Assembly: GCA_050742955.1 (NCBI GenBank)
Contig: JBOGDY010000001.1
Span: forward strand, 1 to 36,539
Origin: Actinomycetes bacterium
Lineage (GTDB): Bacteria; Actinomycetota; Actinomycetes; JACCUZ01
Reading direction: 5' to 3'
DNA: 36,539 bases
A program made the position numbers and the translations under genes. The notes beneath the pieces are model-generated. The model worked only from the letters and a program-made list of their open reading frames with translations, searched no databases and was not told the origin of the DNA. Position 1 is the first letter of the stretch. Each line of letters begins with the position of its first letter. Positions 7,883 to 25,118 of this stretch are shown here, piece after piece.

Positions 7883-10540
7883 ATGGCTCGGGTGCGTTCA
7901 GGGGTCTCCACGTCGCCGTCGGCGCTGGATCGGACTCACGACACGCGAGTCGACCTTCCGGCCCTGCCGGACTGGGTCGTGCCGCGACCCAGGCTGTCCG
8001 CGGTCCTGTCGGAGGGCACCGGCCGCCTCCTCACCGTCGTCACGGGGCCCGCAGGGGCGGGAAAGACGATCTCCGTCGCGTCATGGGCGGCGGACTCCGA
8101 CCACACAGGCCCGATCGTCTGGCTGAACTGCGGCGGGGTCGACGGCCCTCCTGCATTCTGGAACGACCTGCGCCAGCTGCTGGTGCGGGCCGGTCCGGGT
8201 GTCGGCCGCGACGCTGCGCCTGGGGACCGCGTAACCGCCGCCCGGGCGCTGTCCGACGAGCTGGCCCGCCTACCAGAGCCGTGCGTGGCCGTCCTAGACG
8301 ACTTCCACCTGGTTGGCGAGCGGGAGATCTTCGACGGGCTCGACGATCTTCTGCAGCGGACGCATGGCAACCTCCGACTCGTGCTGGTCTCTCGGACCGA
8401 CCCGGAGCTGGCCCTGCACCGCTACCGGCTGGCCGGCGAGCTCACCGAGCTGCGTGCCGCGGACCTCGTCCTCCGGCGGGACGAGACAGCACTTCTCCTG
8501 GCCCAGCACGGAGTGCGGCTGTCTGATCAGCGGCTGGACACCCTGCTGGCGCGGGCGGAAGGCTGGGCGGCCGGCGTGCGACTCGCCGCCCTGTCGCTGC
8601 AGGCCCATCCTGATCCGGCGTCGTTCACCGAGGCGTTCGCCCAGACCGATCAAGCTGTCTCGGACTACCTGTTCCAGGAGGTCTTCGCGCGAGTCCCACG
8701 CGCCGTCCGCGACTTCCTCCTACGTACGAGCGTTGTCGACGAGCTGCACCCCGGGCTGGCCCGGGCTCTCGCCGGCGATGGCACCGGCGTGGACCTGCAG
8801 CTCATCGAGCGAACGAACACGTTCCTCCAACGCGGTCCGGACGGCTCCTACCGCTATCACTCCTTGTTCTCCACGGCCGCCAAGGCCCAGCTGCAGCATG
8901 ACGCGCCCGGCCTTGAGGCCGACCTCAACGCCCGCGCCGCCCGGTGGTACGCGGACCACGACGCACTGCCGCAGGCCGTGCATCACGGTGCCATCGCGGG
9001 CGAGTGGGAGTGGGTGGCAGGCCTGGTAGTGGGGTCGGTCGCGGTGCCGGGCCTCTTGGTGGGCGACCCGGACCACCTGCTTTCCGATCTCAGGCAGCTC
9101 CCTTCGAGCGAGTGGGCGCGTCCTGACTCCCTCCTGCTGACCAGTGCCCTCGCCTCCGTGGACGAACGGGATACGACGGCCGCCCTCACCCTGCATCGCG
9201 CGGAATCCCTGCAGTCCGCACCTGACAACAGCACCCTGCCGGCGTTGGTCACCGCTTCGGTCCTTCGGCTCGTGGCCGCCAGGCGGCTGGGGCTCGTCGA
9301 CGAGGGACTTGCCGAAGCGGAGGACCTGCGCACCTCGGCCGCAGGTCTTCCTCCCGCCGTCCAAGCGGCGAGACCGGAGCTGTTCGGTTTCCTGCTCGCG
9401 CACCGCGGGACCTTCGAGTTGTGGAGGGGCTGGTTCGACGAGGCGGCCGCCACCCTGTCGGCCGGTGCCCGCGTCCTCGACGACTGGCCGACATCCCGGC
9501 ACCTGCGCGACGACTGCCTCGGCCAGCTGGCCCTCCTGCACGCCATCAGAGGCCATCTCGTGCAGGCCGACGCTGTGGGTCGCCAGGTGACCGTCGGGCC
9601 GGCGGGCGCCGGAGCCTCGGGTCTGACCCTTGAGGCGGAGCTCGCACTGGCGTGGTGTCACATCGAGCGGGCGGAGGTGGCCAGCGCGCGTCGACGGCTG
9701 GACCGGGTGCGCGACGCCCTGCGCGAGCACCCCAACCCCATGATGGATGTCGCCCACTGTGTCGCCGAGGTCCGCCTGCTCGGACTCACCGGCGACCTGC
9801 AGGCCGCTCTCGAGGTGTTCTCGTCACGGCACCGGCAGGGTGCGCCGACCGCCTGGCTGGACAACCAGCTGGTCATCGCAGGTGCGGAGGCGCTGGCATC
9901 GTTCGGTGAACCCCACCAGGCCCTGGCGACCGTCGCGCGGCACGCGGAGAAGTCGTCGATCGAGGCGGCAGTGCTGACCGCCCGCGTCAGGCTGGCGCTG
10001 GGTGACCTGCGCGGGGCCCGGTCAGCCCTGGCCTCCGCCCTGCCGAGGATCGTGGATGCCCCGGTGGGTGTCCGCGTCGATGCATGGCTGCTGGAGGCTC
10101 ACCTGGCCTTCGACGAGGGGCGGGTCGAGAGGATGCACGTGCTGCTGGAACGTGCACTGCGTGCCGGCGCAGCGGAAGACCTCCGGCGCCCGTTCGGTCG
10201 GGCGGGTCCCTGGCTGCGGCGGGCGATCCGGCTGGACACGGACCTGCTGCGCTCCTGGCGGGCGTTCGTCGCGCCGTCGCTCGCGGACTCCCCGATCCCC
10301 GAGCCGCGTCACGAGCCGTCGCCTGTGAGCGGTCCGAGCCCGCTGCCCGAGCCCCTGACGGACCGGGAGCAGGAGGTGCTCACCCTCCTCGCGGAGTTCC
10401 TCTCGACAGAGGAGATCGCCGGGGCGCTCTTCCTTTCGGTGAACACGGTCAAGACCCATCTCAAGAGCCTGTATCGCAAGCTAGGCGCCGGGCGGCGTGT
10501 CGACGCAGTGCGCACCGGTCGTGATCTCGGACTCTGCTGA
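7883..10540 (+). CDS. LAL/MalT-type large ATP-binding LuxR-family transcriptional regulator, second tandem paralogue.
   Basis: ORF 7853..10540. ATG 7883 is preceded by GGGAGGA. It has Walker A TGPAGAGKTI, Walker B VAVLDDFH and a C-terminal LuxR HTH (LTDREQEVLTLL...EIAGALFLSVNTVKTHLKSLYRKLG). Confidence 0.88.
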   Translation: MARVRSGVSTSPSALDRTHDTRVDLPALPDWVVPRPRLSAVLSEGTGRLLTVVTGPAGAGKTISVASWAADSDHTGPIVWLNCGGVDGPPAFWNDLRQLLVRAGPGVGRDAAPGDRVTAARALSDELARLPEPCVAVLDDFHLVGEREIFDGLDDLLQRTHGNLRLVLVSRTDPELALHRYRLAGELTELRAADLVLRRDETALLLAQHGVRLSDQRLDTLLARAEGWAAGVRLAALSLQAHPDPASFTEAFAQTDQAVSDYLFQEVFARVPRAVRDFLLRTSVVDELHPGLARALAGDGTGVDLQLIERTNTFLQRGPDGSYRYHSLFSTAAKAQLQHDAPGLEADLNARAARWYADHDALPQAVHHGAIAGEWEWVAGLVVGSVAVPGLLVGDPDHLLSDLRQLPSSEWARPDSLLLTSALASVDERDTTAALTLHRAESLQSAPDNSTLPALVTASVLRLVAARRLGLVDEGLAEAEDLRTSAAGLPPAVQAARPELFGFLLAHRGTFELWRGWFDEAAATLSAGARVLDDWPTSRHLRDDCLGQLALLHAIRGHLVQADAVGRQVTVGPAGAGASGLTLEAELALAWCHIERAEVASARRRLDRVRDALREHPNPMMDVAHCVAEVRLLGLTGDLQAALEVFSSRHRQGAPTAWLDNQLVIAGAEALASFGEPHQALATVARHAEKSSIEAAVLTARVRLALGDLRGARSALASALPRIVDAPVGVRVDAWLLEAHLAFDEGRVERMHVLLERALRAGAAEDLRRPFGRAGPWLRRAIRLDTDLLRSWRAFVAPSLADSPIPEPRHEPSPVSGPSPLPEPLTDREQEVLTLLAEFLSTEEIAGALFLSVNTVKTHLKSLYRKLGAGRRVDAVRTGRDLGLC

Positions 10541-12686: not shown

Positions 12687-13892
12687 TCACCCGCCCGGGG
12701 TGGTTTGCCCGGCGAGCTCGGCGAGGAGCCGATCGATGCGGACCAGGCCCAGGTAGCGGCCGTCCTCCGTGGTGCACACGACCGGGTCGAAGCGGTACGG
12801 GGCCGGGCGCGTGACGGCGCGCAGCGCCAGTTCCCGCAGCGGGGTCGTCACGAACGCGCGGAGCGTGACCGGGGTCGTCCGCACGATCCGGTTGCCTGTC
12901 CCGTCCTCCTCCATGTGCGCGAGCGCGATGGGTCGACTGACCCGATCCAGGACCACCGTCACGACCACCTCGCCCGACTGCGCAGCCGGCGCCACCGGTG
13001 CGGTCGGCAGCCCGTGGGGGTCCATGACGGGCGCGTCCTCGAGCAGGGCCTCGGCGACGTCGGTGTAGAGGTGCAGCGACGCTCGCGACCTAACTCGCTG
13101 CACGGTCGGGGTCGGCAGCGCCGACCACGGAGCGTCCGGCCGGCCGAGCAGCCAACCTTGCGCTAGGGGCACACCGAGGGCGATGAGCCGATCGAGCTCC
13201 GGGACCCGTTCCACGCCCTCTGCCAGCAGGAGCGCGTCGAGCCGGGACGCAACGGTGGTGAGGAACTCGGCGAAGACGGCCTTCACCTCATCCCTGTCGA
13301 GGCGGTCGACGAACGCCCGGTCGAGCTTGATCACGTCTGGGCGCAGGTCCGCGATCTGACGCAGGCCCGAGTACCCCGTCCCCGTGTCGTCGAGTGCGAT
13401 CCTCGCCCCGCGGGCCCGCAGCCAGTCGAGATGCCTCACCAGGGCGTCGGTCTCGCCGTACGGCACATGCTCGGTCAGCTCCACCACCACGTTGCCGAGG
13501 TCGCCCGGCCGCCCGAAAGCCGCCCGGACCGGCGCAGTGTGCAGCAACCGCGGGCTCACGTTCACGCTCAGGAAGGCGCCCGCCGGCAGGTCGGACTTCG
13601 CCTCCAGCGCCTTGCCCAGAGCATGCGCCTCAAGGTCGGCGCCCAGGCCGTGCTCAGCAGCGGCGGCGAACCACTGGTCCGGGCGGGCACCGGGACCGGC
13701 CGGGAACCGGGACAGCGCCTCGTAGCCGGCGGTCACGCCTCGATGCAGGTCGACGATAGGTTGGAAGACCGTCCGCAACGCGGTCGCCGACTCGAGGATC
13801 GAGCGGACCGCCGGTGCATCCAGCTCGTTGGCCCCGACGGCTGCTGGGTTGGCCGGCCCGCGGGTGGCGTCGCCGTGGCTGAGCACCGTCAC
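12687..13892 (-). CDS. EAL-domain c-di-GMP phosphodiesterase with a C-terminal CBS-like extension and no GGDEF domain.
   Basis: EAL-domain motifs appear in order: FQPIVDL, GYEALSRF, ELTE, LDDTGTGYSGL, DVIKLD, AEGVE, AQGWLLGRP. The ~130-aa C-terminal region resembles a CBS pair. Confidence 0.88.
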   Translation of the reverse strand: MTVLSHGDATRGPANPAAVGANELDAPAVRSILESATALRTVFQPIVDLHRGVTAGYEALSRFPAGPGARPDQWFAAAAEHGLGADLEAHALGKALEAKSDLPAGAFLSVNVSPRLLHTAPVRAAFGRPGDLGNVVVELTEHVPYGETDALVRHLDWLRARGARIALDDTGTGYSGLRQIADLRPDVIKLDRAFVDRLDRDEVKAVFAEFLTTVASRLDALLLAEGVERVPELDRLIALGVPLAQGWLLGRPDAPWSALPTPTVQRVRSRASLHLYTDVAEALLEDAPVMDPHGLPTAPVAPAAQSGEVVVTVVLDRVSRPIALAHMEEDGTGNRIVRTTPVTLRAFVTTPLRELALRAVTRPAPYRFDPVVCTTEDGRYLGLVRIDRLLAELAGQTTPGG

Positions 13893-13968
13893 TCGCCCAA
13901 CATCGACCAGATCGGGGCATACCTTGACGACCGGACTCCGCCGGCCGCCCCGCCGCGGCAGGGGCTGC

Positions 13969-14940
13969 CTAGCCTGGGACCAGGACCGGATAGCGGTAGC
14001 GCAGCAGCAGGGGCAGGGTGAGGGAGGCGACCACGGCCTGCCGCCGTCGGCTCATGGCACGGGCCCATTCGTCGTCGGCCCGGATTGACACCTCACCGAT
14101 CGTGAACCGCCGCGGGTTGCCTGCGACGGTGTGATTGGCATGCAGTCGCACGGTCGCGCCGTCACCCATGGCTGGCACCTCTCGTTCCCCAAGCCACGTG
14201 CACACCCGTCGGAGCTCAGCCTCTGGCGCCACGACGAAGTCCTCGTAACGCACCGCCAGCCACCTACTGGCAGGGACGTGCCGGCACAGCAGCTCGCAGC
14301 CGAGATTGCTCTCCAGCCAACGACCGGCACTGTGTGTCAGAGACCGTTTCGCCATGTCACCGCGCCTGCCGTCGACGGTAGGCAAGGGCTTGACCCGCCC
14401 CCAGGAGAACGCGACGGCCCGCGGGTCGCGCACCAGATGCAGGACGTAGTGGTCGACCGACCGCAGTCCTCCGAGCACGGCGGCGTCGACGGGTCGTTTG
14501 GAAGCGTCGATCACCACCCGTGCCCCGGTGGTCGCAGCGATGGCGTCGATCAGGTCAGCGGTGTGTGATCGGAGCTGTACGACGTCGCGGGAGGCGCCTG
14601 TCTCACGATCGGCGGACCGGACCACGTGGACCCGCCGACTGCGCGCCGCTACCCGCCGCTGCACGGCGACGATCTCGGCAATGCGCTGACTCGGCAAGGC
14701 CTGTCCGGGCTCGGTGATCACGTCGCCGAGCGCCTTGCGCACGACTTCGGACCACTGCGGACAACGGGCCGGCGGCAGCCCGCAGCCACACGGTCGCTGT
14801 TCCAGCAGCCCGCGCTGCCACAGCCAACGCAGTTCGCCGACGTTGAGGAACCCCGGGATCTCGCCAAGGATCTGGGCCAGCAGTGTGCTGCCGCTTCGAC
14901 CCGGACCGACGATGGAGACCACTTTGACCGGCGCCGTCAT
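13969..14940 (-). CDS. Sulfotransferase family protein.
   Basis: It has an N-terminal PAPS-binding P-loop-like motif (VSIVGPGRSGSTLL) and a sulfotransferase-like body (HLVRDPRAVAFS). Confidence 0.78.
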   Translation of the reverse strand: MTAPVKVVSIVGPGRSGSTLLAQILGEIPGFLNVGELRWLWQRGLLEQRPCGCGLPPARCPQWSEVVRKALGDVITEPGQALPSQRIAEIVAVQRRVAARSRRVHVVRSADRETGASRDVVQLRSHTADLIDAIAATTGARVVIDASKRPVDAAVLGGLRSVDHYVLHLVRDPRAVAFSWGRVKPLPTVDGRRGDMAKRSLTHSAGRWLESNLGCELLCRHVPASRWLAVRYEDFVVAPEAELRRVCTWLGEREVPAMGDGATVRLHANHTVAGNPRRFTIGEVSIRADDEWARAMSRRRQAVVASLTLPLLLRYRYPVLVPG

Positions 14941-15395
14941 GTGACACCCCGTCCTTTGACGCCAGTCGGCGTGTGGATGAGCGCCGGAGCCCTCCTATGT
15001 GAGTTCAGGATCGGGCCCCGATGCTGAGGGGTCCATTGTGCATCGGTCCTAGTGCCCGCCGCAGTTTTTCGTGCCTGCGCGAGATCGCGTGGTGGGCGGT
15101 CGCGGCGGGAGTCGAGGCGCCCCTTGCCTCGGTTCACTCACCGCAGGCGCCGCCGCGCTGCCCCCGACTAGGCGACGGCTAGGCGGCTGCCGTTGACAGC
15201 CTGCTCGGCCAACTTCGGCCGCCGCAGCTTCGGCCGTCAGTTCCACGTGCCGTCGACAACTAATCCAGACCCGCTCTTCGACGGAATGCCGTCAACTGGC
15301 CCAAGGTGGGCATCGCAACAGGGCCGAAAGCCCTCCGGTCTGCCTCGGCGGTGGACCCATTCAAGGCGCTGCGCCTAGAGGCAGGGCGTCCCCAG

Positions 15396-15439
15396 GACCA
15401 TGCGTTGATGGTCATGGGGCCTGGCTAGATGGAGGCCCC
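15396..15439 (-). terminator. Two adjacent stem-loops downstream of the P-type ATPase gene.
   Basis: GGGGCC/GGCCCC stem (15416-15439, 12-nt loop) and GACCAT/ATGGTC stem (15396-15413, 6-nt loop). They begin 34 nt after the ATPase stop codon (15473). Confidence 0.4.
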
Positions 15440-15472
15440 GCGCGAGACTCTCCCGCAAGCCGCGTCACAGAG

Positions 15473-18202
15473 TCAGGAGCCGCTGGTCGATACCCGCGGC
15501 TTCGCCCGCAGCCATGCGCGGTAGGCCTCGTCGACGGCCCAGACGACAAGTGGGAAAGGCGCGATGAGCGCTAGGACATCCCAGGGCAGCGGTGCCGTCT
15601 GCATGATCGTGTTGGCCGCAGGCAGGTAGACGAGAGCGGCGGTGAAGACGAGCTCGAAGGCGATGCCCCAGAGCAACATGGGGTTGGAGAGCAGCCCGAC
15701 GGAGCGCAGGGAGGCATGCGCCGTCCGAGCCGCAACTGCGGTACCCACCTGGCAGGCGACGATCCCCGCGAAGGTCGCCGTGGTGGCCTGCAGGTAGGCG
15801 TGGTGCAGCGGGGATCCGCTTTCCGTCGGGTCCCCTGGTCGCCACCCGGCCCGGTACAGCGTGTAGAAGAACGCCCCCATGACGAGCACGGCCGAGATCC
15901 CGCCCAGCAGCAGCCATGCCCGAATGAGCATCTCGCGTGTGACCACCGACTCGCGTGGCGGCCGAGGCGGCTTCTGCATGATGCCCGGCTCCGCGGGCTC
16001 ACGTCCGAGCGCCAGGGCCGGCATGGTCTCGGTGCCGAGGTCTATGGCCAGGATCTGCGCGACCGTGAGCGGCAACGGCACGGCGCCACCCGAGAGCGCG
16101 AAGGCCAGGAAGGGCACGACCTCGGGCACGGCGTGGGCGAAGATGTAGAGGATGAACTTGCGCACGTTGTCGTAGACCCGGCGCCCCTCCTCGACAGCGT
16201 CCACGATGGTGGCGAAGTTGTCGTCGGTGAGCACCACGGTCGCCGCCTCGCGCGCGACGTCCGTGCCCGCTCGGCCCATGGCCACGCCGATGTCGGCCCG
16301 GCGCAGCGCGGGCGCGTCGTTCACTCCGTCGCCGGTCATCGCGACGACCTCGCCGGCGTCCTGAAGCACGTCAGCGATGCGGAGCTTGTCCTCAGGGCTG
16401 CTGCGCGCGCACACCACCTCTTCCCGACCGGTCATGATCGATGTCAGCTGTGCATCGGTCATCCCGGCGGTGTCCGCACCGCTGACCAGCCGAAGCCCGT
16501 CGACGCCGATGCCCACCTGCCGAGCGATCTCCGCCGCGGTGTCGCCGTTGTCGCCGGTGAGGACGTGCACCCGCAGGCCGGCCGAGTGACACCGCGCGAC
16601 GGCCGGGCCAACCTCGGCGTGGGGCGGATCGAGCAGCGCGACCATGCCGAGCAGCCGGAGGTCACACTCGGCGTCGTGCCGGTGCTTCGGCCAGGGAAGG
16701 CTGCCGAGCTCGCGGTCCGCGACTGCCAGGACGCGCAGTCCTCGCCCAGCGAGCTCGTGGACGCGCGCGACGGCGGCCTGCCGCGCCGCATCGTCGAATG
16801 GAGCCGTCCCTCCGCCCTCACACAATCGCCGGGTACAGCGCTCGAGCACGGCTTCCGGTGCCCCTTTGACGTGCAGAGCCGTCCCGTCGGGGCCGGTGTC
16901 CACCGTCGACATGAGCCGGAGCTGCGCGTCGAACGGGTAAAGGCGCCGTCGTGCCTGGTCACGGGCGGCCGGGTCGACCCGCACACCGAGCAGCTCAGCG
17001 GCCTCGAGGACCGCAGTCTCGGTGGGGTCGCCGCCCTCCGCGGTCGATCCGTACGAGGTGGTCGTGCAGGCCACCATTGCCCGGGCGAAGACCCGTTCCG
17101 CGGCCCCCGCGCCCATTGCTCCTGGCTCGACATCCCTGCCGGCAACCCACATGGCCGCCGGTCGCATGCGGTTCTGGGTGATGGTCCCGGTCTTGTCCGA
17201 GCAGATGACGGTCGTCGACCCGAGCGTCTCGACGGCCGAGAGCCGCCGCACGACTGCTCCGCGCCGGGCGAGGGATCGGACGCCCACAGCCAGGGCGAGG
17301 GTGATCGTTGGCAGCAGCCCTTCCGGGACATTGGCGACGAGCAGACCCACGGCGAACAGGAAGGAGTCCTTGACCGTCAGCCCTGCGCTCAGACCGAGAG
17401 GGAAGAAGGCCAGCCCGATCGCGACCGCCACTGCCGCGATGAGCCACGCGATCCGCTTCACCTGGCGTTCCAGCGGGCTCACGTCGCGCGTCACCCGCTG
17501 CGACAGCGAGGCGATGCGGCCGAGCTCCGTGCGGTCACCGGTCGCGTAGACGAGCGCATGTGCGGATCCAGAGGTGCATGTCGTGCCGCTGAACACGAGG
17601 TCGGTCGCCTGCAGGACCGGCACGGCACGCGCCGTCGGGTTGGGGGTCCGAGTCTGCGGTGTGGACTCCCCGGTCAGCGTCGACAGATCCACCTCGATCT
17701 CGCCGGTGAGCAGCCGCCCGTCGGCGGACACCCGTTGGCCCTCGCTCACGACGAGGACGTCACCCGGTACGAGCGTCTGTACGTCGAGCACAACGGCCGT
17801 CCCGTCCCGCAGCGCCGTCGCCTGCTGCGGCAGGTAGCGACGCAGAGCCTCGACTGCTCGTTCCGCCTGACGCTCCTGCGCAAAGGCGAAGGCCGCGTTG
17901 AGGAGAATGACGGCGGCGATGGCCCAGCCCAGCACGGGCGTCCCCGAGACGAAGGCCAGCAGGCTGGCCGCAGCCAGCAACAGCGCGAGCGGGTGGACGA
18001 CCTGGGCCACGAGCTCGCCGAGCCAGGTGCTGCGCGCCTGGCGGGTCAGCTCGTTCCGACCGAAGCGCGCGAGCCGCCGCTCGGCCTCCCGGGTGGTGAG
18101 CCCGGCCCGGCTCGCCCGCAGCTCGTGCAACAGCACGTCGGCTGGTGCGGCGGGGTCGGGCGGTCCTACGTCATCGCGGGGAGGCGGGCCCGGCGTGCCC
18201 AT
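15473..18202 (-). CDS. P2-type cation-transporting P-type ATPase, Ca2+/Mg2+-type and CtpF-like.
   Basis: It carries TGES (LTGESTP), the phosphorylation site [13 protein letters not shown], the TM4 PEGL motif ([11 protein letters not shown]), TGDN (LTGDNGDTA) and the hinge [22 protein letters not shown]. Confidence 0.93.
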
Positions 18203-18230
18203 GATGACTCCTCTCGTGGCTTGCCACGCG

Positions 18231-20932
18231 TCAGCGCAGGCGGCGCAGCTCCGGCAACGGCCCCTCGGGCGTCGGAGCGAGGCGCAGCCGTACGTCGGTG
18301 GCGACCGCGCCCGTGCGGCTGGCCATGACGGGGTTCAGGTCGAGCTCGGCGACCTCCGGCACGTCGTCGGCCAGCCTCGCGACGCGCAGCAGCAGGTCGG
18401 ACAGGGCGTCGACATCGCAGCGGGGTGAGCCGCGGTAGCCGAAGAGCAAGGGACTGCACCGCAGGTCGCGCACCATCGCGGCCGCATCGACATCGGTGAG
18501 GGGCAGGATGCGGAACGCCTGGTCACCCAGGACTTCCGTCCAGACGCCACCCATCCCGAGCACCAGGACGGGACCGAAGGTGGGCTCTTGGACCACGCCG
18601 ACGAGCAGCTCGACCTGACCGGCCAACATCGGCTCGACGAGGACGGAGCCGTCGCCAACCTCAGCGACGCGCTCGAAGGCCGTGCGCACCTCGTCGTCGT
18701 CGCCCAGGTTCAGGGCGACCCCGCCGACGTCGCTCTTGTGGACGACGGCCGGATCGGCCGTCTTCAGGACGACGGGATAGCCGATCGACCTGGCCGCCTC
18801 CACTGCGCCCACGGCGTCCGTGGCGCGCCGAAGGGAGACCATCTCGATTCCGTAGGTGGCGAGAAGCTCGCGCGCCGTTTCGGCCGGCAGCCAGCCGCCC
18901 TCCGGCCGGCCCGCCAGTGCTCGTGCCACGACGCCCCGGGCCTCGGCCGCGCGGATCCCGGCCAGGTCCGGCACCACCCCACGACTGGATCGACGCCAGC
19001 GCCCGTAGCGCACGGCGTGGCCGAGGGCACGCACCGCCGACTCCGGGAACTGGTAGACCGGGACCGGCCGCGCCCCCTTCTCGTCCAGCAACGGCGCCGA
19101 ATCCGGACGACCCAGGACCACGGCGACCGTGGGCAGCACGCTCCTCGCGACGACATCGAGCATGGCGTCGGGATCGTTGGCCCGGGTCGCGGCGACGACG
19201 GCGACCACCGCATCGACCTCGCCGCTGCCGGCCACCTCTTCGAGTGCTGCCGACAGGTCGCGGGCCGTCGCACCTGCGCCGAGATCGATGGGGTTGTCCT
19301 GCCCGCGCGGCCCGGGCAGCCGCTGCCGCAACGCCTCGGACAGGATGGGGACCTCGAGACCCGCCGACTGGGCGGCATCGCTGGCCAGGACGCCCGCCCC
19401 ACCCGCGTTGCCGATCACGGCGATCCTCCCACCATCGGGAACGGGTTGGACGTCCAGGAGCCGGGCGGTGTCAATCAGATCCTCGACGGTGTCCAGGCGC
19501 AGCACACCGGCCTGCGCGAAGAGTGCGTCGACGGCGGTGTCGGGGGAGGCAGCCGCTGCCGTGTGGGAGCGTCCGGCCCGGCGCCCTCCGGCCGACCGAC
19601 CGCCCTGACGACCAGGACAGGCTTGGTCGCGGACACCCGCCTGGCCAGCCGGGCGAACTTACGGGGGTTGCCCAGGGACTCGAGGTAGAGAGCGATCACG
19701 TGCACACGCTGGTCGTGCCACCAGCGCAGCAGGAGGTCGTTGCCGCTTACGTCGGCCTTGTTCCCGAGCGAGACCATGCTGGCGACACCGAGCCGGGCGC
19801 GACTCGCGACATCGACGAGAGCGATGGCGACCGCGCCCGACTGCGCGGCGATGGCCAGGTGGCCGGGCTGTGGGCGGGTAGGCGCGAACCAGGCCTCGAG
19901 CGACACCTCGGGGTCGGTGTTGAGCAACCCGATGCAGTTCGGGCCCACCAGCCGCGTACCGCTGGTCCGAGCCGATCGCACCAGCCGCTCCTGCAGCTGG
20001 AGACCGGCCCCGCCCAGCTCGGCCAGCCCCGAGGACAGGATGACTACGGCCCGGACGCCGGCCCGTCCGCAGTCGTCGATCACGTCCTCGAGCGCCGCCA
20101 CGGGCACGGACACGACGGCCAGATCCACCTGACCGGGGATCTCGCTGACGGTGGGGTAGGCGGTCAGTCCTGCGACCTGGCGGGCCCGCGGGTTGACCGG
20201 GTAGACGCTCCCGGCGAAATGACCGGCCACGATGCTGCTCAGCACCTCGTGACCGACGCTGCCCGGGCGACGGCTGGCGCCCACGACGGCCACCGTGCGC
20301 GGTTCGAGCAATGGGTGCAGGGACGCAAGCTCGGCCCGCTCCTCGCGCGTGTCCATCGCCAGGAGCGTCTCCTCGTCTGCGGTGGTGGCGAGCCGGAACC
20401 GCGAGACGCCGTCGGCGAGGGAGCTCCGGCTGCGTAGCCCCGAGTCGGCAAAGACTGCGGCCATCCGCCGGTTGTCGACCAGCACGTCGCCGACCAGCTC
20501 GCGGACGCCGACCGACCGGGCCGCGGCGGCAAGGTGCTCGAGGAGCAGAGTGCCCACGCCCTCACCCTGGTGCGCGTCCTCCACGAGCAGCGCGACCTCC
20601 GCCTCGTCGTCACCGGTCCGCTCGAAGCCCGCGACTGCGACCACCACGCCGCCGAGGAGTGCGACCAGGGCAGCGTGGTCCCGGTCCGTCGGCCTCACCA
20701 CGCTCTCCACGTAGTCGTCGGCGACATTCCGGTTGAGGGCGAAGAACCTGAAGTAGAGGCTGCGGTCGGTGACGCGGGAGTTCAGGGCCCGGAGCGCATC
20801 GGCGTCGGCTCGGGTGACGGGCCGGATCCGGACGATCTGCCCCTTGGCGGTGAGCGCCTCGCACCCGGTGGGCGGCGTGTCCACGGGCGTCAGCCCGGTG
20901 CCCGGACGCGCGCCGGTCTCGGTCGGGATCAC
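18231..20932 (-). pseudogene. PatA-like GNAT acetyltransferase / NDP-forming acyl-CoA synthetase fusion, interrupted by an apparent 1-nt frameshift near 19600-19612.
   Basis: ORF 19475..21121 encodes GNAT (QGEGVGTLLLEHL), a CoA-binding domain (VAVVGASRRPGSVG) and a ligase-CoA domain. ORF 18231..19505 encodes the ATP-grasp part. The third frame reads continuously GGRSAGGRRAGRSHTAAAAASPDTAVDALFAQAGVLRLDTVEDL, joining the two. The proposed start GTG (20932) overlaps the upstream stop as GTGA. Confidence 0.75.
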
Positions 20933-21699
20933 GGCCGTCGCTCCGTCCGCGAGGCGCGTAGGGCGGGCACGACGACCATGGCGACACCCGTCAACATGCC
21001 AAGGGCGCCGGCGACGAGCAGGCCCGCCGCCACATCGTCGAGGAGGGGGACCGTGGCAGCGGCCCGCACCCGGACGGCGATCCCCGGCACAGCGTCCTGG
21101 TTCATCGTGACGATGGTCCACGACCCGTCACGCGGCCGCCACGTCACGCTCTGCGGGCCCGTGCCGACGGACTGGGCGACCCAGATGTCGGCCGTCTCCG
21201 GCAGCTGCCGGGGAGGCCCTCCCGGGTGGTCCACGCGGATGCGACCGTTGAACGGCAGGTCGGCGAAGGTCGCGTGCCGCACGCCCTCGAGATATCTCGC
21301 GGCGTCGGCGGTGCGAGCGATGCCCAGGAACAGGAGACGCCCGGGGTCGGCTGGGGTGACCTGCACCCTGACCGTGCCCACCAGCCTGTCCACACCAGGT
21401 CCCCAGCCAGCCTGTCGGAGATCCATCGGACCTCCGTCCACTGCAAAGCCGGCGGTGGCGAAGGACTCGGAGCCGAACGACAGGAAGCCGGCCGCGTCCC
21501 GTTGGGTCCGGTCCACGAGCAGCGCAGCAGCGCCGGCCACGAGCAGCACCAGCCCGACGATGCTCGAGATGTTCCCGACGACCACCGACGCCACCCGGCC
21601 CGCCGTCCACCCACGGCGCGACCGGTGCCCCGAACGCCCGGAGCCGGGCGGTGGTACCGCGGCCGCCGGTGGCCCATACGCCGGGGGCGCGGTCGTCAT
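20929..21699 (-). CDS. Membrane protein of unknown function: N-terminal Pro-rich tail, a TM helix, a ~190-aa extracytoplasmic domain and a C-terminal TM helix.
   Basis: ORF 20929..21708. ATG 21699 lies 9 nt after AAGGAG. TM segments are VVVGNISSIVGLVLLVAGAAALLV and AAGLLVAGALGMLTGVAMVVV. Confidence 0.65.
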   Translation of the reverse strand: MTTAPPAYGPPAAAVPPPGSGRSGHRSRRGWTAGRVASVVVGNISSIVGLVLLVAGAAALLVDRTQRDAAGFLSFGSESFATAGFAVDGGPMDLRQAGWGPGVDRLVGTVRVQVTPADPGRLLFLGIARTADAARYLEGVRHATFADLPFNGRIRVDHPGGPPRQLPETADIWVAQSVGTGPQSVTWRPRDGSWTIVTMNQDAVPGIAVRVRAAATVPLLDDVAAGLLVAGALGMLTGVAMVVVPALRASRTERRP

Positions 21700-21748
21700 C
21701 GGCACCATCTCCTTCGTCGAGCTCAGGGGGATCCGGCGGCGCCGGCCG

Positions 21749-22192
21749 TCACGTCCCGCTCGGCTGCTCGGACTCCTCGGGCTGCTCGAGACTCACGTCT
21801 CGCAACGCCCGCAGCAGGTCCGACCCGGTGACGATGCCCACCGGCCGCCTCTCCGCGTCGACGACCGGTAGCGCGTCGTCGCCACGGGCGAGCATGAGCC
21901 GCGCGGCCTCACGGACGTTCAGGGCGGGCGTGACCTCGCACGGGACCTGCGTGTACGACTGGAGCACCTCGGTCACCTGTCTGGTGCGCAGGGTCAGCGC
22001 GGCCGTGAGGCACTCCCCCATGGCGACCCGATCGCTGAGCACGCCGACGAGAGTCCGTGCCCCGTCGACCACGACGAGGTGACGCAGTCCGCTGACCATG
22101 AACTGGTCGACGGCCTGCCACACGGTGTCGGTGTCCCGCACCGTCACGACCGGTGCCGACATCACCTCGGCGACCGATGGTGCATCGACCAT
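21749..22192 (-). CDS. CBS-pair domain protein (Hrp1-like).
   Basis: It has two CBS repeats (VMSAPVVTVRDTDTVWQAVDQFMVSGLRHLVVVD... and ...ARLMLARGDDALPVVDAERRPVGIVTGSDLLRAL). The ATG lies 4 nt after the ADH stop, with GAAGGAG inside the ADH 3' end. Confidence 0.85.
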   Translation of the reverse strand: MVDAPSVAEVMSAPVVTVRDTDTVWQAVDQFMVSGLRHLVVVDGARTLVGVLSDRVAMGECLTAALTLRTRQVTEVLQSYTQVPCEVTPALNVREAARLMLARGDDALPVVDAERRPVGIVTGSDLLRALRDVSLEQPEESEQPSGT

Positions 22193-22195
22193 TGC

Positions 22196-23245
22196 TCACT
22201 CCTTCGTCAGCACGACCTTGAGCGCACCGCTCGCGCCTGCGTCCGAGAAGACCTCGTACGCCGTGAGCATCTGGCCCAGGGAGAACGTGTGCGTCACCAT
22301 CGGCGCCAGGTCGAGCTGCCCGTCGCGGAGCAGGCGCAGCAGCGTCGGCGTAGTCGAGGTGTCGACCAGCCCCGTCGTGATGGTGACGTCCTTGATCCAC
22401 AGGTCCTCCAGGTGCAGCGTGGCCGGCTTCCCGTGGACTCCGACGTTCGCGACCCGCCCTCCCGGCCGCACCAGCCGGGTGCACAGCTCGAAGGTCTCGG
22501 GGAGGCCGACGGCCTCGATGACCACGTCCGCGCCGAGCCCGTCGGTCAGGTCGAGGACAAGCGTCCTGGCCTCGTCCGGGTCGCTCATGTTGCTGACCAG
22601 CACGTCCGCGCCGACGCCCTTGGCGGCGTCCAACCGGCCGGACAGCGGGTCGATCGCCACCACGCGCGACGGCGAGAAGAGCTTGGCGGTCATGATCGCC
22701 GCGAGGCCGATCGGGCCGGCTCCGACCACCGCCACCGTCGCGCCTGGACTGACACCCCCGGCGAGCACCCCGACCTCGTAGCTCGTCGGGAGGATGTCGG
22801 CCAGCAGCACTGCCGACTGGTCGGGCAGGCCGACCGGCAGCCGGTGCAGTGACAGGTCCGCGAAAGGGACCCGCGCGTACTCGGCCTGGACACCGTCGAT
22901 GAGGTGCCCGAGCTGCCACCCGCCGCCCCCCAGGCACTGCCCGTAGCGCGCCTCCCGGCAGAAGCGACAGACGCCGCACGCGCTGATGCAGGAGACCAGG
23001 ACGCGGTCGCCCGGGGTCACCGTCCGCACCGCGGAGCCGACGGCCTCGACCGTCCCGACCGCCTCGTGCCCGAGGATCCGCCCCTCGGCCACCTCCGGCA
23101 CATCGCCCTTGAGGATGTGCAGGTCCGTCCCGCAGATGGTGACGGCGTCGATGCCGACGATCGCGTCCGTGTCGTCCAGCAGACCGGGGTCCGGGACCTC
23201 GTCCCAAGCCTTGCTGCCGTTCCCCTGATAGACCAAGGCACGCAT
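22196..23245 (-). CDS. Zinc-dependent medium-chain alcohol dehydrogenase.
   Basis: ORF 22196..23584. The internal ATG at 23245 is preceded by GGAGGTGG. It has GHEAVGTVEAVG (catalytic Zn), the C-x2-C-x2-C-x7-C structural Zn motif (CISACGVCRFCREARYGQC) and the Rossmann motif VVGAGPIGL. Confidence 0.9.
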   Translation of the reverse strand: MRALVYQGNGSKAWDEVPDPGLLDDTDAIVGIDAVTICGTDLHILKGDVPEVAEGRILGHEAVGTVEAVGSAVRTVTPGDRVLVSCISACGVCRFCREARYGQCLGGGGWQLGHLIDGVQAEYARVPFADLSLHRLPVGLPDQSAVLLADILPTSYEVGVLAGGVSPGATVAVVGAGPIGLAAIMTAKLFSPSRVVAIDPLSGRLDAAKGVGADVLVSNMSDPDEARTLVLDLTDGLGADVVIEAVGLPETFELCTRLVRPGGRVANVGVHGKPATLHLEDLWIKDVTITTGLVDTSTTPTLLRLLRDGQLDLAPMVTHTFSLGQMLTAYEVFSDAGASGALKVVLTKE

Positions 23246-23355
23246 GTCCACCTCCGCGGCGCCGTGACCACGTGTGCGGTCTCCCGCGGCACCCTCGCTT
23301 GCGAACGTAGGTGCCGGGCCGCGAGCCCGGCAGGTGCCGTGGTCTCCCCTTCGAC

Positions 23356-23369
23356 GGGACCTAGGTCCC
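23356..23369. promoter_or_regulatory. DosR/DevR-type box B1 in the divergent ADH-operon / USP-ABC-operon promoter region.
   Basis: Perfect 14-bp palindrome GGGACCTAGGTCCC with a GGGAC-N4-GTCCC core. It lies 111 nt upstream of the ADH ATG and 93 nt upstream of the USP ATG. Confidence 0.7.
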
Positions 23370-23461
23370 CTGGAGGCACTCAGTGAGGCCCTGGCCGTCC
23401 GGGGGCGCCTGGGCTGTGCTGACGAGTGACAGGCAGCCGCGGACCGACCTGTGGAGGAGCA

Positions 23462-24352
23462 ATGGAAGCGATCGACCGGAGGGCGCTCGTCGTGGGCGTC
23501 GACGGATCGCCGGCCGGCAAGGAGGCGCTGCGCTGGGCGCTCGACGCCGCCGCACGCCGTAGGGCCGGTGTCCGTGTCGTGCATGCGCTGGAGCTGTCGC
23601 TCTTCGACGTCCGGCTGGACGCCGCCTACGGACCCGGATGGGAAACCCCGCTACGGACATCGATGCGGCAGATGCTCGACGAGATCGTCGCGGATGCCGC
23701 CCGGTCCCACCCGGACGTAACCGTCGAGACCCGTCTCGAGGCAGCGCCCGCCTCGGTGATCCTTGTGGAGGAGTCCGAGCGCGCGGACACCGTCGTGCTC
23801 GGAAAGCGCGGGACCGGCGGCTTCGCGAACCTGGTCATCGGCTCGACCACGCTGCACGTGGCGACGAACGCCCACTGCCCGGTGGTCGCCGTGCCCACGG
23901 CGCCCGCTGCAGGACCCGCCCGCCGTGGCGTGGTGGTCGGTGTCGACGGCACGCCGGCTGCAGAGCCGGTCATCGAGTACGCGTTCCGGGCCGCCGACGA
24001 GGCCGGCGAGCCCCTCATGGCAGTGCACACCTGGCGCGATCCGGCCCCGATGGGTCCGGGGGTGATGATGCCCCTCGTCTACGACCCGACTCTTGTCACC
24101 TTCGAGGAGCGGCTGCTGCTGTCCGAGATGATGGCCGGCTGGTCGCAGAAGTACCCCGACGTCGAGGTTCAGCAGACGGTCCTGCACGCCCACGCCGTAC
24201 CGTCGCTGGTCGAGGAGGCCCGGGCCGCGCGGCTCCTCGTCGTCGGCTGCCGGCGGCGCGGGGACCTCAAGAGCCTTCTGCTCGGCTCGGTCAGCCACGG
24301 AGTCCTGCACCGGGCCTGCGGACCGGTGGCCGTCGTGCCGCGCACGGGGTGA
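23462..24352 (+). CDS. Tandem universal stress protein (two UspA domains).
   Basis: ORF 23426..24352. ATG 23462 is preceded by GGAGGAG. It has duplicated USP modules (VVGVDGSPAG...VLGKRGTGGFANLVIGSTTLHVATNAHCPVVAV and VVGVDGTPAA...VVGCRRRGDLKSLLLGSVSHGVLHRACGPVAVV). Confidence 0.9.
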   Translation: MEAIDRRALVVGVDGSPAGKEALRWALDAAARRRAGVRVVHALELSLFDVRLDAAYGPGWETPLRTSMRQMLDEIVADAARSHPDVTVETRLEAAPASVILVEESERADTVVLGKRGTGGFANLVIGSTTLHVATNAHCPVVAVPTAPAAGPARRGVVVGVDGTPAAEPVIEYAFRAADEAGEPLMAVHTWRDPAPMGPGVMMPLVYDPTLVTFEERLLLSEMMAGWSQKYPDVEVQQTVLHAHAVPSLVEEARAARLLVVGCRRRGDLKSLLLGSVSHGVLHRACGPVAVVPRTG

Positions 24353-24359
24353 GCGGCTC

Positions 24360-25118
24360 ATGAGCAGCCACACCGAACCTGCGACGCCGAGGCCGCTGCT
24401 GGTGGCCGAGCGGGTGAACAAGGTCTACCGCTCCGGCGACGTGAGCGTCGCGGCCCTGGTCGACCTGGACCTATCGGTGGAGGCCGGCGAGCTGGTAGCC
24501 GTGATGGGTCCCTCCGGCTCGGGCAAGACGACGTTGCTCAACTGCCTGTCCGGCCTCGACGACATCGACGGAGGGCGGGTCACGGTGGCCGGCCGCGACC
24601 TGTTCGCGATGTCGGACGCCGAACGCACCGAGCACCGCGCACGGTCGATGGGTTTCGTCTTCCAGTCGTTCAACCTGATCCCGGTGTTCACGGCGGTCGA
24701 GAACGTCGAGCTGCCGCTCCTGCTGGTGGGTACGCCTGCCCACGAGGCGCGTCGGGCGGCGCTGGAGATGCTGGCGCAGGTCGGGCTCAGCCACCGGGCG
24801 AGCCACCTGCCCAACCAGATGTCAGGCGGAGAGCAGCAGCGCGTGACGATCGCCCGCGCCCTGGTCGCCCGACCGGCGATCGTGTGGGCCGACGAGCCGA
24901 CCGGCAACCTGGACACCGCCATGGCCGCGCAGGTGATGGAGCTGCTCCGGCGGCTCAACCAGGAGCACGGCCAGACCATCGTCCTGGTCACCCACGACCA
25001 GGCGATCGGTCGCGCGGCCGGCCGGCTGGTGCTGATGCGCGACGGTCGGCTGGAGAGCGACCGCCACTCCACCCCGGCCGGCGTCGCGGTCGGTTCGCCC
25101 CGCACCTCGTCGGACTGA
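24360..25118 (+). CDS. ABC transporter ATP-binding protein (MacB/LolD-like clade).
   Basis: It has Walker A GPSGSGKTT, the signature MSGGEQQRV and Walker B IVWADEPTGNLD. It starts 8 nt after the USP stop. Confidence 0.93.
   Translation: MSSHTEPATPRPLLVAERVNKVYRSGDVSVAALVDLDLSVEAGELVAVMGPSGSGKTTLLNCLSGLDDIDGGRVTVAGRDLFAMSDAERTEHRARSMGFVFQSFNLIPVFTAVENVELPLLLVGTPAHEARRAALEMLAQVGLSHRASHLPNQMSGGEQQRVTIARALVARPAIVWADEPTGNLDTAMAAQVMELLRRLNQEHGQTIVLVTHDQAIGRAAGRLVLMRDGRLESDRHSTPAGVAVGSPRTSSD

What the first reader, a model, noticed from the sequence alone, without database searches (positions are those of the whole stretch)
19595..19615. Single-nucleotide frameshift splits a PatA-like GNAT / acyl-CoA-synthetase gene
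ORF 19475..21121 ends in an unconserved-looking Pro/Arg-rich tail (…VLVVRAVGRPEGAGPDAPTRQRLPPPTPPSTHSSRRPVCCAWTPSRI). A different frame of the same DNA reads GGRSAGGRRAGRSHTAAAAASPDTAVDALFAQAGVLRLDTVEDLIDTARLL. That is the expected continuation of an NDP-forming acyl-CoA synthetase, and it runs straight into ORF 18231..19505 (the ATP-grasp part). The junction lies at minus-strand GTCGTC-AGGGCGGTCGGTCGG, which contains a short CGGT repeat. One missing base, for example AAGGGC reduced to AGGGC, would restore a single protein of about 900 aa. The cause could be a real pseudogene, an assembly or homopolymer error, or slippage-dependent expression.
Basis: seen in the sequence. Interest (0 to 1): 0.6.

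Follow-up and report, generated by a model that had tools for sequence, protein, structure and literature searches.

The report
Frameshift-broken PatA-like acetyltransferase gene
A roughly 900-codon gene for a PatA-type protein acetyltransferase in an uncultured soil actinobacterium is cut in two by one missing base; the break is present in four independent sequencing runs, looks very recent, and is most likely the ordinary loss of a spare gene copy.

Summary
On the minus strand, 20932..18231 is one gene for a GNAT plus NDP-forming acyl-CoA-synthetase protein (SlPatA-like, "type II" Pat). Its reading frame drops by one base at 19599-19606. Reading through gives a 900-aa protein that aligns without gaps to every intact homologue and restores a complete Succ_CoA_lig domain. 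All 120 best database homologues and all 80 genome loci are single ORFs, so no natural split exists at this point.

The broken allele is not an assembler accident. It is 100% identical in Logan per-run assemblies of four SRA runs and in a second NCBI MAG. Nothing supports programmed frameshifting: there is no slippery heptamer, no nearby homopolymer and no unusual RNA fold.

The downstream half shows no decay, so the lesion is very recent. The genome keeps an intact core paralogue, and the broken copy is an accessory one with no counterpart in genus or family relatives.

The best reading is a real, recent inactivating frameshift, which is ordinary. One oddity remains: a lineage-specific CGG-to-AGG change creates GGGAGGA-N5-GTG just after the premature stop, so the 3' half might still be translated.

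The parts
18231..20932 (-). Whole disrupted gene: type II (SlPatA-like) GNAT plus NDP-forming acyl-CoA-synthetase-like protein, 900 aa if read through the frame change.
   Evidence: Read-through built. Pfam finds GNAT 35-166, CoA_binding 212-338, Succ_CoA_lig 356-493 (1-138/138, 162 bits) and ATP-grasp_5 679-885. The protein is collinear with 15 intact homologues.
20929..20945 (-). Likely true start: GGAG (20945-20942), an 8-nt spacer, then GTG at 20932 overlapping the upstream gene's stop as GTGA.
   Evidence: Homology with the intact paralogue begins just downstream. The gene caller's product of 485 aa starts here.
19475..20932 (-). 5' ORF of 485 aa: GNAT, CoA-binding domain and the first 96/138 of the Succ_CoA_lig domain, followed by a 41-residue out-of-frame tail and a TGA stop at 19477-19475.
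   Evidence: This exact protein is on record in five contigs.
19599..19606 (-). Position of the frame change, with one base fewer than in intact homologues. Frame 0 reads ...GTC GTC AGG GCG. The -1 frame continues as GGT CGG TCG (G-R-S).
   Evidence: Homologues read V-V-K-[A/G/S]-G-R-S here.
19506..19601 (-). 32 codons in the -1 frame (GRSAGGRRAGRSHTAAAASPDTAVDALFAQAG), including the conserved SHT histidine loop. No start codon precedes them, so neither ORF encodes them.
   Evidence: The stretch keeps 15/15 of the columns that are invariant in the homologues.
18231..19505 (-). 3' ORF (424 aa from GTG 19505): end of the Succ_CoA_lig domain, Ligase_CoA_2 region and ATP-grasp_5.
   Evidence: This exact protein is on record in five contigs.
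19416..19430 (-). SD-like GGGAGGA (19430-19424), a 5-nt spacer, then an in-frame GTG (19418-19416), 56 nt after the premature stop. This start gives the 395-aa product on record for the window's own contig. The SD arises from an AGG Arg codon.
   Evidence: P0122, 395 aa, on the 36539-nt contig. Sequence shown. 0 of 74 homologous loci, and none of the three closest homologues, have AGG or an SD-like motif here.

Best explanation
This is a real and evolutionarily very recent single-base deletion in the DNA of this actinobacterial population. It inactivates an accessory second copy of a type II (SlPatA-like) protein acetyltransferase gene.

Translation from GTG 20932 runs through the GNAT domain, the CoA-binding domain and two thirds of the flavodoxin-like Succ_CoA_lig domain. 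It then leaves the frame at about 19601 and stops 41 codons later, at 19477-19475. The histidine loop and the last third of that domain are lost from any product. The ATP-grasp half can be made only by independent initiation.

In this enzyme class the NDP-forming-synthetase-like region is needed for acetyl-CoA sensing, oligomerisation and activity. The most likely consequence is therefore loss of function, or a crippled and deregulated GNAT fragment (inferred). The cell tolerates this because it keeps the intact core paralogue.

Shown here: the lesion, its reproducibility, the lack of decay and the existence of the paralogue. Inferred: the loss of function and its tolerance.
For: - **Lesion and collinearity:**. 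The Succ_CoA_lig match rises from 1-96/138 (103 bits) to 1-138/138 (162 bits) on read-through.
- **No natural split:** all 120 best hits among 5.8 billion proteins are single proteins of about 865-950 aa, with at most 69% identity. All 80 GTDB loci match in one piece across residues of about 20-900.
- **Reproducibility:** the exact 485-aa and 424-aa products occur on Logan per-run contigs of SRR27067744, SRR27067766, SRR27067702 and SRR27067733, and in GCA_975255145.1. All five are 100% identical to the window over 9.8-14.7 kb, junction included. No near-identical intact allele is in the database.
- **Assembly quality:** a codon-phase scan of the whole MAG (3.05 Mb, N50 6.4 kb) gave 20 candidate frame switches. 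Only 3 are true split genes: this one and two IS transposases. The assembly is therefore not indel-ridden.
- **Recency:** the read-through keeps 91/93 invariant columns upstream of the shift and 93/95 downstream. There is no excess of lineage-specific changes downstream.
- **Dispensability:** the intact paralogue G000:C7:6816-9482 (889 aa) has orthologues at 52-78% identity in 19 of 20 relatives. Same-genus and same-family genomes have no counterpart of the window's copy.
Against:
- The five contigs are clonal and the four runs have neighbouring accession numbers, probably one project. A platform-specific systematic error, or a low-frequency intact allele, is therefore not formally excluded.
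- Perfect conservation downstream of the shift fits an artefact or recoding as well as a very recent mutation.
- The SD-like start at 19418 leaves open that the 3' half is still made.
Confidence: 0.78

Rival explanations
1. Sequencing or consensus artefact: the organism's gene is intact and one base was lost in the data.
For: - The genome is a fragmented MAG (616 contigs, 84% complete).
- The downstream half is perfectly conserved.
- In other MAGs of the family the core paralogue is also seen in two frames (G012, G010), so such splits do occur in MAG data.
- No reads were available.
Against: - Five contigs carry the identical junction: per-run assemblies of four different SRA runs and a second NCBI MAG.
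- There is no homopolymer at the site; the context is AGGGCGGTCGG.
- Apart from two IS transposases, the genome-wide scan found no other split gene.
- No intact near-identical allele is on record.
Confidence: 0.08
2. Incipient gene fission. The frameshift is real, but the 3' half (395 aa: Ligase_CoA_2 plus ATP-grasp) is translated from a newly created SD and GTG at 19418. Such translation would yield a separate subunit, protect the downstream P-type ATPase gene from transcriptional polarity, or do both.
For: - GGGAGGA-N5-GTG lies 56 nt after the premature stop.
- The SD is created by an AGG Arg codon. 74 of 74 homologous loci and the three closest homologues use CGN there and have no SD-like motif.
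- AGG makes up only 4.4% of Arg codons in this genome. An internal 6-mer SD plus in-frame start occurs at 0.33 per 1000 codons, so about 0.02 are expected in a 75-codon zone.
- Archaeal NDP-forming synthetases occur naturally as separate alpha and beta chains (PDB 4xyl_A and 4xyl_B).
- The gene sits inside a tight operon with no terminator-like site.
Against:
- The break is inside domain 2, not at the natural alpha/beta boundary, and removes the histidine loop from both products.
- The 5' product ends in a truncated domain plus 41 junk residues.
- There are no expression data.
Confidence: 0.09
3. Programmed -1 ribosomal frameshifting or transcriptional slippage produces the full-length protein from this sequence.
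For: The required shift is -1. The downstream frame is fully conserved. A rare AGG codon sits at the junction.
Against: - There is no X_XXY_YYZ heptamer anywhere in the 184-nt zone where both frames are open. The only homopolymer of 4 or more bases is CCCCC, about 55 nt downstream of the homology-defined junction.
- The local RNA fold is no more stable than shuffled sequence (z = +0.38).
- None of about 200 homologues uses a frameshift here.
- A hungry AGG codon would favour a +1 shift, not -1 (established knowledge).
Confidence: 0.02

Closest known systems
Streptomyces lividans PatA (SlPatA), the type II bacterial GNAT lysine acetyltransferase
   Same: [quoted passage not shown]
- The best solved-structure match of the GNAT domain is PDB 4nxy/4u5y (E = 8e-26). 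4NXY is the SlPatA GNAT domain (PMC12607858).
- The GNAT P-loop Q-G-E-G-V-G is intact.
   Different: - The gene is encoded in two frames, so no single polypeptide is made.
- It has no collagen-like G-P-S motif.
- The histidine of the SHT loop is present and invariant in this clade, whereas the review describes the type I and type II synthetase domains as lacking the catalytic histidine.
- Identity to Streptomyces and Kribbella homologues is only about 50%.
E. coli PatZ / Salmonella Pat (type I GNAT)
   Same: It uses the same two building blocks. PDB 9isq (PatZ) matches both the synthetase-like region (271 bits) and the GNAT domain (30 bits).
   Different: The domain order is reversed. PatZ has NTT where this protein has SHT. 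The match is much weaker than to true ADP-forming ligases.
ADP-forming acyl-CoA synthetases (ACD superfamily; for example 4-hydroxybutyrate-CoA ligase 8wzu, and the two-subunit archaeal ACD 4xyl alpha/beta)
   Same: Residues 207-883 align end to end with 8wzu (426 bits), including the phosphohistidine-loop motif SHT. NCBIfam's best hits are ADP-forming ligase models, all below their cut-offs. Natural two-chain versions exist (4xyl_A and 4xyl_B).
   Different: This protein carries an N-terminal GNAT domain. The natural alpha/beta split lies before the ATP-grasp domain, not inside domain 2. All NCBIfam scores are far below the equivalog cut-offs (457 against 1300).
Ordinary frameshift pseudogenes in bacterial genomes and MAGs
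   Same: It is a single-base indel with a premature stop 41 codons later. An intact paralogue is retained, and the broken gene is an accessory copy.
   Different: It is unusually fresh, with no secondary lesions, and a strong SD-like start follows the stop.

Membership tests
Type II GNAT protein acetyltransferase (SlPatA-like) | N-terminal GNAT catalytic domain with an acetyl-CoA P-loop (R/Q-x-x-G-x-G/A) | tested here: met
   Pfam Acetyltransf_1/3/7 at residues 35-166. Q-G-E-G-V-G is conserved. The best PDB match is the SlPatA GNAT domain 4nxy, E = 8e-26.
Type II GNAT protein acetyltransferase (SlPatA-like) | [quoted passage not shown] | tested here: met
   All domains are present and complete in the read-through. 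It aligns over 677 residues with 8wzu.
Type II GNAT protein acetyltransferase (SlPatA-like) | Both parts lie on one polypeptide of about 900 aa | tested here: not met
   As encoded, the gene gives 485-aa and 424-aa (or 395-aa) ORFs in different frames. It is a broken member, not a working one.
Type II GNAT protein acetyltransferase (SlPatA-like) | Collagen-like G-P-S motif reported as needed for SlPatA activity (PMC8556138) | tested here: not met
   There is no GPS and no G-x-x repeat in the 900-aa read-through. This may be specific to SlPatA rather than to the type.
Type II GNAT protein acetyltransferase (SlPatA-like) | Synthetase-like domain is catalytically dead through loss of the histidine (as stated in PMC8556138) | tested here: not met
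   H457 in the SHT loop is invariant in all 16 aligned sequences and aligns with SHT of the active ligase 8wzu. PatZ has NTT at this position.
Type II GNAT protein acetyltransferase (SlPatA-like) | Lysine acetyltransferase activity on acyl-CoA synthetases or other targets | not testable with these tools
   This needs an enzyme assay.
Programmed -1 ribosomal frameshift site | Slippery heptamer X_XXY_YYZ in the zero frame at the shift point | tested here: not met
   None is present in the 184-nt zone where both frames are open.
Programmed -1 ribosomal frameshift site | Stimulatory downstream RNA structure | tested here: not met
   The minimum free energy is -80.8 kcal/mol against a shuffle mean of -82.5 (z = +0.38).
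Programmed -1 ribosomal frameshift site | Conservation of the frameshift among homologues | tested here: not met
   All homologues are single ORFs.
Two-subunit (alpha/beta) NDP-forming acyl-CoA synthetase | Split at the boundary before the ATP-grasp domains, with each chain made of whole domains | tested here: not met
   The break lies inside Succ_CoA_lig at profile position 96/138. Between 32 and 61 residues, including the histidine loop, are in neither product.

The most novel reading that the evidence does not exclude
This may be a gene fission caught in the act. After the frameshift, a synonymous CGG-to-AGG change, unique among 77 compared homologues, created a strong ribosome-binding site (GGGAGGA-N5-GTG at 19430-19416) just past the premature stop. 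The ATP-grasp half would then be translated as a separate protein. Ribosome cover over 1.2 kb of otherwise untranslated operon mRNA would also shield the downstream P-type ATPase gene from Rho-dependent polarity.
Probability: 0.08. Interest if true: 0.45.

Novelty: new member of a known kind. Interest (0 to 1): 0.15.

Why it matters
The main value is for annotation. The two ORFs at 18231-20932 should be recorded as one frameshifted, probably non-functional, type II Pat-like acetyltransferase gene rather than as two proteins. The organism's working Pat-type enzyme is the paralogue on contig C7.

The case also shows that a frameshift in a fragmented MAG can be tested without read pile-ups, by asking whether independent per-run assemblies carry the identical split products.

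Beyond that it is a routine pseudogene. Two small biological points remain: this clade keeps the phosphohistidine-loop histidine that Pat-type regulators are said to lack, and an SD-like start follows the lesion.

Tried and rejected
- **Read pile-up:** Exact-protein look-ups in independent assemblies were used instead.
- **Tool errors:** The genome search with the 548-aa ORF failed twice; the 424-aa ORF was used instead. The second MAG's record is not held for genome search. One Pfam call failed on a coordinate I gave wrongly.
- **Natural two-gene arrangement:** rejected, because no homologue is split and the break is inside a domain.
- **Programmed frameshift or transcriptional slippage:** rejected.
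- **Old, decaying pseudogene:** rejected, because invariant residues are kept equally on both sides of the shift. The first relative-rate test with P0007-P0012 as outgroup was uninformative, since the window's gene branches outside that group. Only the P0015 outgroup rows were used.
- **Indel-ridden assembly:** rejected after the codon-phase Viterbi scan. 17 of 20 candidates were ordinary gene boundaries or low-complexity tails. The scan detects only shifts followed by at least 45 nt of open wrong frame, so it gives a lower bound.
- **JGI metagenome scan for an intact allele:** not run. The protein search, which includes JGI proteins, found nothing above 69% identity.

Full report
**The observation**

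A three-frame translation shows frame 0 reading ...ATKPVLVVRAVGRPEGAGPDAPTRQRLPPPTPPSTHSSRRPVCCAWTPSRI*. The -1 frame reads ...GGRSAGGRRAGRSHTAAAASPDTAVDALFAQAGVLRLDTVEDLIDTARLL... and runs on into the 424-aa ORF.

Pfam places GNAT, CoA_binding and Succ_CoA_lig in the 5' ORF, with the last domain stopping at profile position 96 of 138. ATP-grasp_5 is in the 3' ORF. The genome's own intact paralogue (contig C7, 889 aa) aligns by tblastn in two pieces that change frame at KPVLVVR(S/A)|GRS.

The homology-defined junction is at 19601: the last frame-0 codon, GCG, ends there and the first -1-frame codon, GGT, begins on the same base. The missing base therefore lies within about 19599-19606.

The true start is almost certainly GTG 20932. 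It has a GGAG SD 8 nt upstream and overlaps the upstream gene's stop as GTGA. The read-through protein is exactly 900 aa. Read through, the Succ_CoA_lig domain becomes complete (1-138/138; 162 bits against 103).

**Are relatives split?**

They are not. A search of 5.8 billion proteins with the read-through returned 7383 hits. The best 120 are all single proteins of about 865-950 aa with the same Pfam set, and the nearest is 69% identical. An alignment with 15 of them has no gap at the junction; the homologues read VVK[A/G]GRS..GRRAG.SHTAAA. A scan of one genome per GTDB species gave 80 loci, each matching residues of about 20-900 in one piece. The break also falls inside a domain rather than between domains.

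**Is it in the DNA?**

I therefore asked whether the exact split products exist elsewhere.

- The 485-aa and 424-aa proteins are both on record from NCBI and Logan.
- They are encoded side by side on Logan per-run contigs of four different SRA runs (SRR27067744, -766, -702, -733) and on a contig of a second NCBI MAG, GCA_975255145.1.
- All five contigs are 100% identical to the window over 9.8-14.7 kb and carry the same junction string.
- No near-identical intact allele is on record.

Per-run assemblies of four separate runs, a second MAG and the window's own MAG agreeing makes a stochastic assembly or sequencing error very unlikely. The site has no homopolymer that could cause a systematic one.

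As a further check I laid the whole MAG in the sandbox (3.05 Mb, 616 contigs, N50 6.4 kb, 71.9% GC). I trained a codon log-odds model and ran a seven-state Viterbi segmentation. Of 823 direct same-strand frame switches, 20 had the upstream frame staying open for at least 45 nt past the switch. Inspection of all 20 showed three true split genes: this one, an IS110-family transposase on C25 and an IS1380-type transposase on C593. The rest are ordinary gene boundaries or low-complexity tails. The assembly is not riddled with indels.

**How old is the lesion?**

Of the columns invariant in all 15 intact homologues, the window's read-through keeps 91/93 upstream of the shift and 93/95 downstream. 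That includes 15/15 in the 32 codons that neither ORF can express. With a suitable outgroup (P0015), the window lineage shows no excess of private changes in the downstream half: 26 against 52 for the sister, compared with 26 against 29 upstream. There are no further stops or shifts. The lesion is evolutionarily fresh.

**Recoding?**

The required shift is -1. Both frames are open over a 184-nt zone (19658-19475). That zone contains no X_XXY_YYZ heptamer. Its only homopolymer of four or more bases is CCCCC at about 19546, far from the junction. The RNA around it folds no better than shuffled sequence (z = +0.38). No homologue uses a frameshift here. I give this about 2%.

**What the gene is**

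- **Domain order:** GNAT first and NDP-forming acyl-CoA-synthetase-like region second, about 900 aa. This is the 'type II' bacterial GNAT layout exemplified by S. lividans PatA (review PMC8556138).
- **GNAT domain:** its best solved-structure match is 4nxy/4u5y (E = 8e-26), which is the SlPatA GNAT domain (PMC12607858).
- **Synthetase-like part:** it matches a true ADP-forming ligase (8wzu, 426 bits, end to end) better than E. coli PatZ (9isq, 271 bits). It keeps the SHT histidine where PatZ has NTT, and H457 is invariant in the alignment. The review describes type I and type II synthetase domains as lacking the catalytic histidine, so this clade departs from that description.
- **G-P-S motif:** no collagen-like G-P-S motif is present.
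- **NCBIfam:** only sub-threshold ligase and Pat hits are found.

**Genomic setting**

The gene is fourth of five tightly packed minus-strand genes: Zn-ADH, CBS-pair protein, a 256-aa unknown protein, this gene and a P-type cation ATPase. Divergent Usp genes lie beyond them. No terminator-like site lies between the genes. Earlier notes of this scan read the palindrome GGGACCTAGGTCCC at 23356-23369 as a DosR-type operator for this operon. I confirmed only that the palindrome is there. The closest intact homologues also sit next to Usp or P-type ATPase genes.

**Dispensability**

The genome holds an intact paralogue (C7:6816-9482, 889 aa, 45-47% identical). Its orthologues are found at 52-78% identity in 19 of 20 relatives sampled, including the same-genus genome at 78%. 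Those relatives show no counterpart of the window's copy. The broken gene is thus an accessory second copy, which makes its loss easy to tolerate.

**Consequences (inferred)**

The 5' product would carry the GNAT and CoA-binding domains, a truncated domain 2 and 41 unrelated residues. Residues 445-476 of the read-through (or 445-505, depending on which start is used), including the histidine loop, appear in no product. In PatZ/Pat the synthetase-like region is needed for activity and for acetyl-CoA-driven oligomerisation (PMC8556138). Loss or crippling of function is therefore the most likely outcome.

**One loose end**

A GTG at 19418, 56 nt after the premature stop, is preceded by GGGAGGA and a 5-nt spacer. 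The 395-aa product on record for the window's own contig corresponds to this start. The SD-like motif exists only because the Arg codon here is AGG. In 74 of 74 homologous loci and in the three closest homologues this codon is CGN, and no SD-like motif is present.

AGG makes up 4.4% of Arg codons in this genome. An internal 6-mer SD followed by an in-frame start occurs 0.33 times per 1000 codons. Roughly 0.02-0.1 such sites would therefore be expected in the relevant zone. This is a post hoc observation on a long branch. It is compatible with chance, but also with selection to keep the 3' half translated, either as a subunit or to avoid polarity on the ATPase gene. I put this at about 8-9%.

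**Verdict**

| Explanation | Probability |
|---|---|
| Real, recent inactivating frameshift of a spare Pat-like gene | about 0.78 |
| Functional fission | about 0.09 |
| Data artefact | about 0.08 |
| Programmed frameshift | about 0.02 |

This is a routine pseudogene and of low interest.

Noticed in passing
window 19416-19430 (-): A lineage-specific AGG Arg codon creates GGGAGGA-N5-GTG inside the coding sequence, 56 nt after the premature stop. 0 of 74 homologous loci, and none of the three closest homologues, have AGG or an SD-like motif at this codon.
   Followed up: partly
read-through residue H457 (window about 19563-19565, -1 frame): The SHT histidine of the phosphohistidine loop is invariant in this clade of GNAT-synthetase fusions and aligns with active ADP-forming ligases. 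PatZ has NTT here. The review literature describes type I and type II Pat synthetase domains as lacking this histidine, so intact clade members might be truly bifunctional.
   Followed up: partly
G000 contig C25 about 8575-9704 (+) and contig C593 about 104-1464 (-): These are the only two other true frameshifted genes found by the genome-wide codon-phase scan. One is an IS110-family transposase (DEDD_Tnp_IS110 cut at 116/155, with Transposase_20 in the next frame). The other is an IS1380-type DDE_Tnp_1_4 transposase (5-247 and 274-433 of 435, in two frames).
   Followed up: yes
window 13969-14940 (-): A 323-aa sulfotransferase (Sulfotransfer_3, E = 5e-15) whose codon usage is so atypical that the codon model calls the whole 13891-15498 stretch non-coding. 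It may have been acquired horizontally.
   Followed up: partly
window 15473-25100; loci L097, L098, L099: The neighbourhood is conserved and looks stress- or dormancy-related. Usp genes, a CBS protein, a Zn-ADH and a P-type cation ATPase surround the Pat-like gene. The closest intact homologues (65-69% identical) also sit next to Usp (L097, L099) or a P-type ATPase (L098). The palindrome GGGACCTAGGTCCC at 23356-23369 is present as earlier notes said.
   Followed up: partly
relatives G012:C3:54911-57536 and G010:C10:171715-174346: In two other MAGs of the family the core paralogue is also read in two frames (split near residue 537 and near residue 139). These are probably assembly indels or independent lesions and were not examined.
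   Followed up: no
L098 617-2044 and 1-462 (-): In the JGI contig that carries homologue P0004, the neighbouring P-type ATPase is called as two genes (475 aa with the N-terminal domains, and a 391-aa product with the C-terminal domains). It may be another split gene.
   Followed up: no
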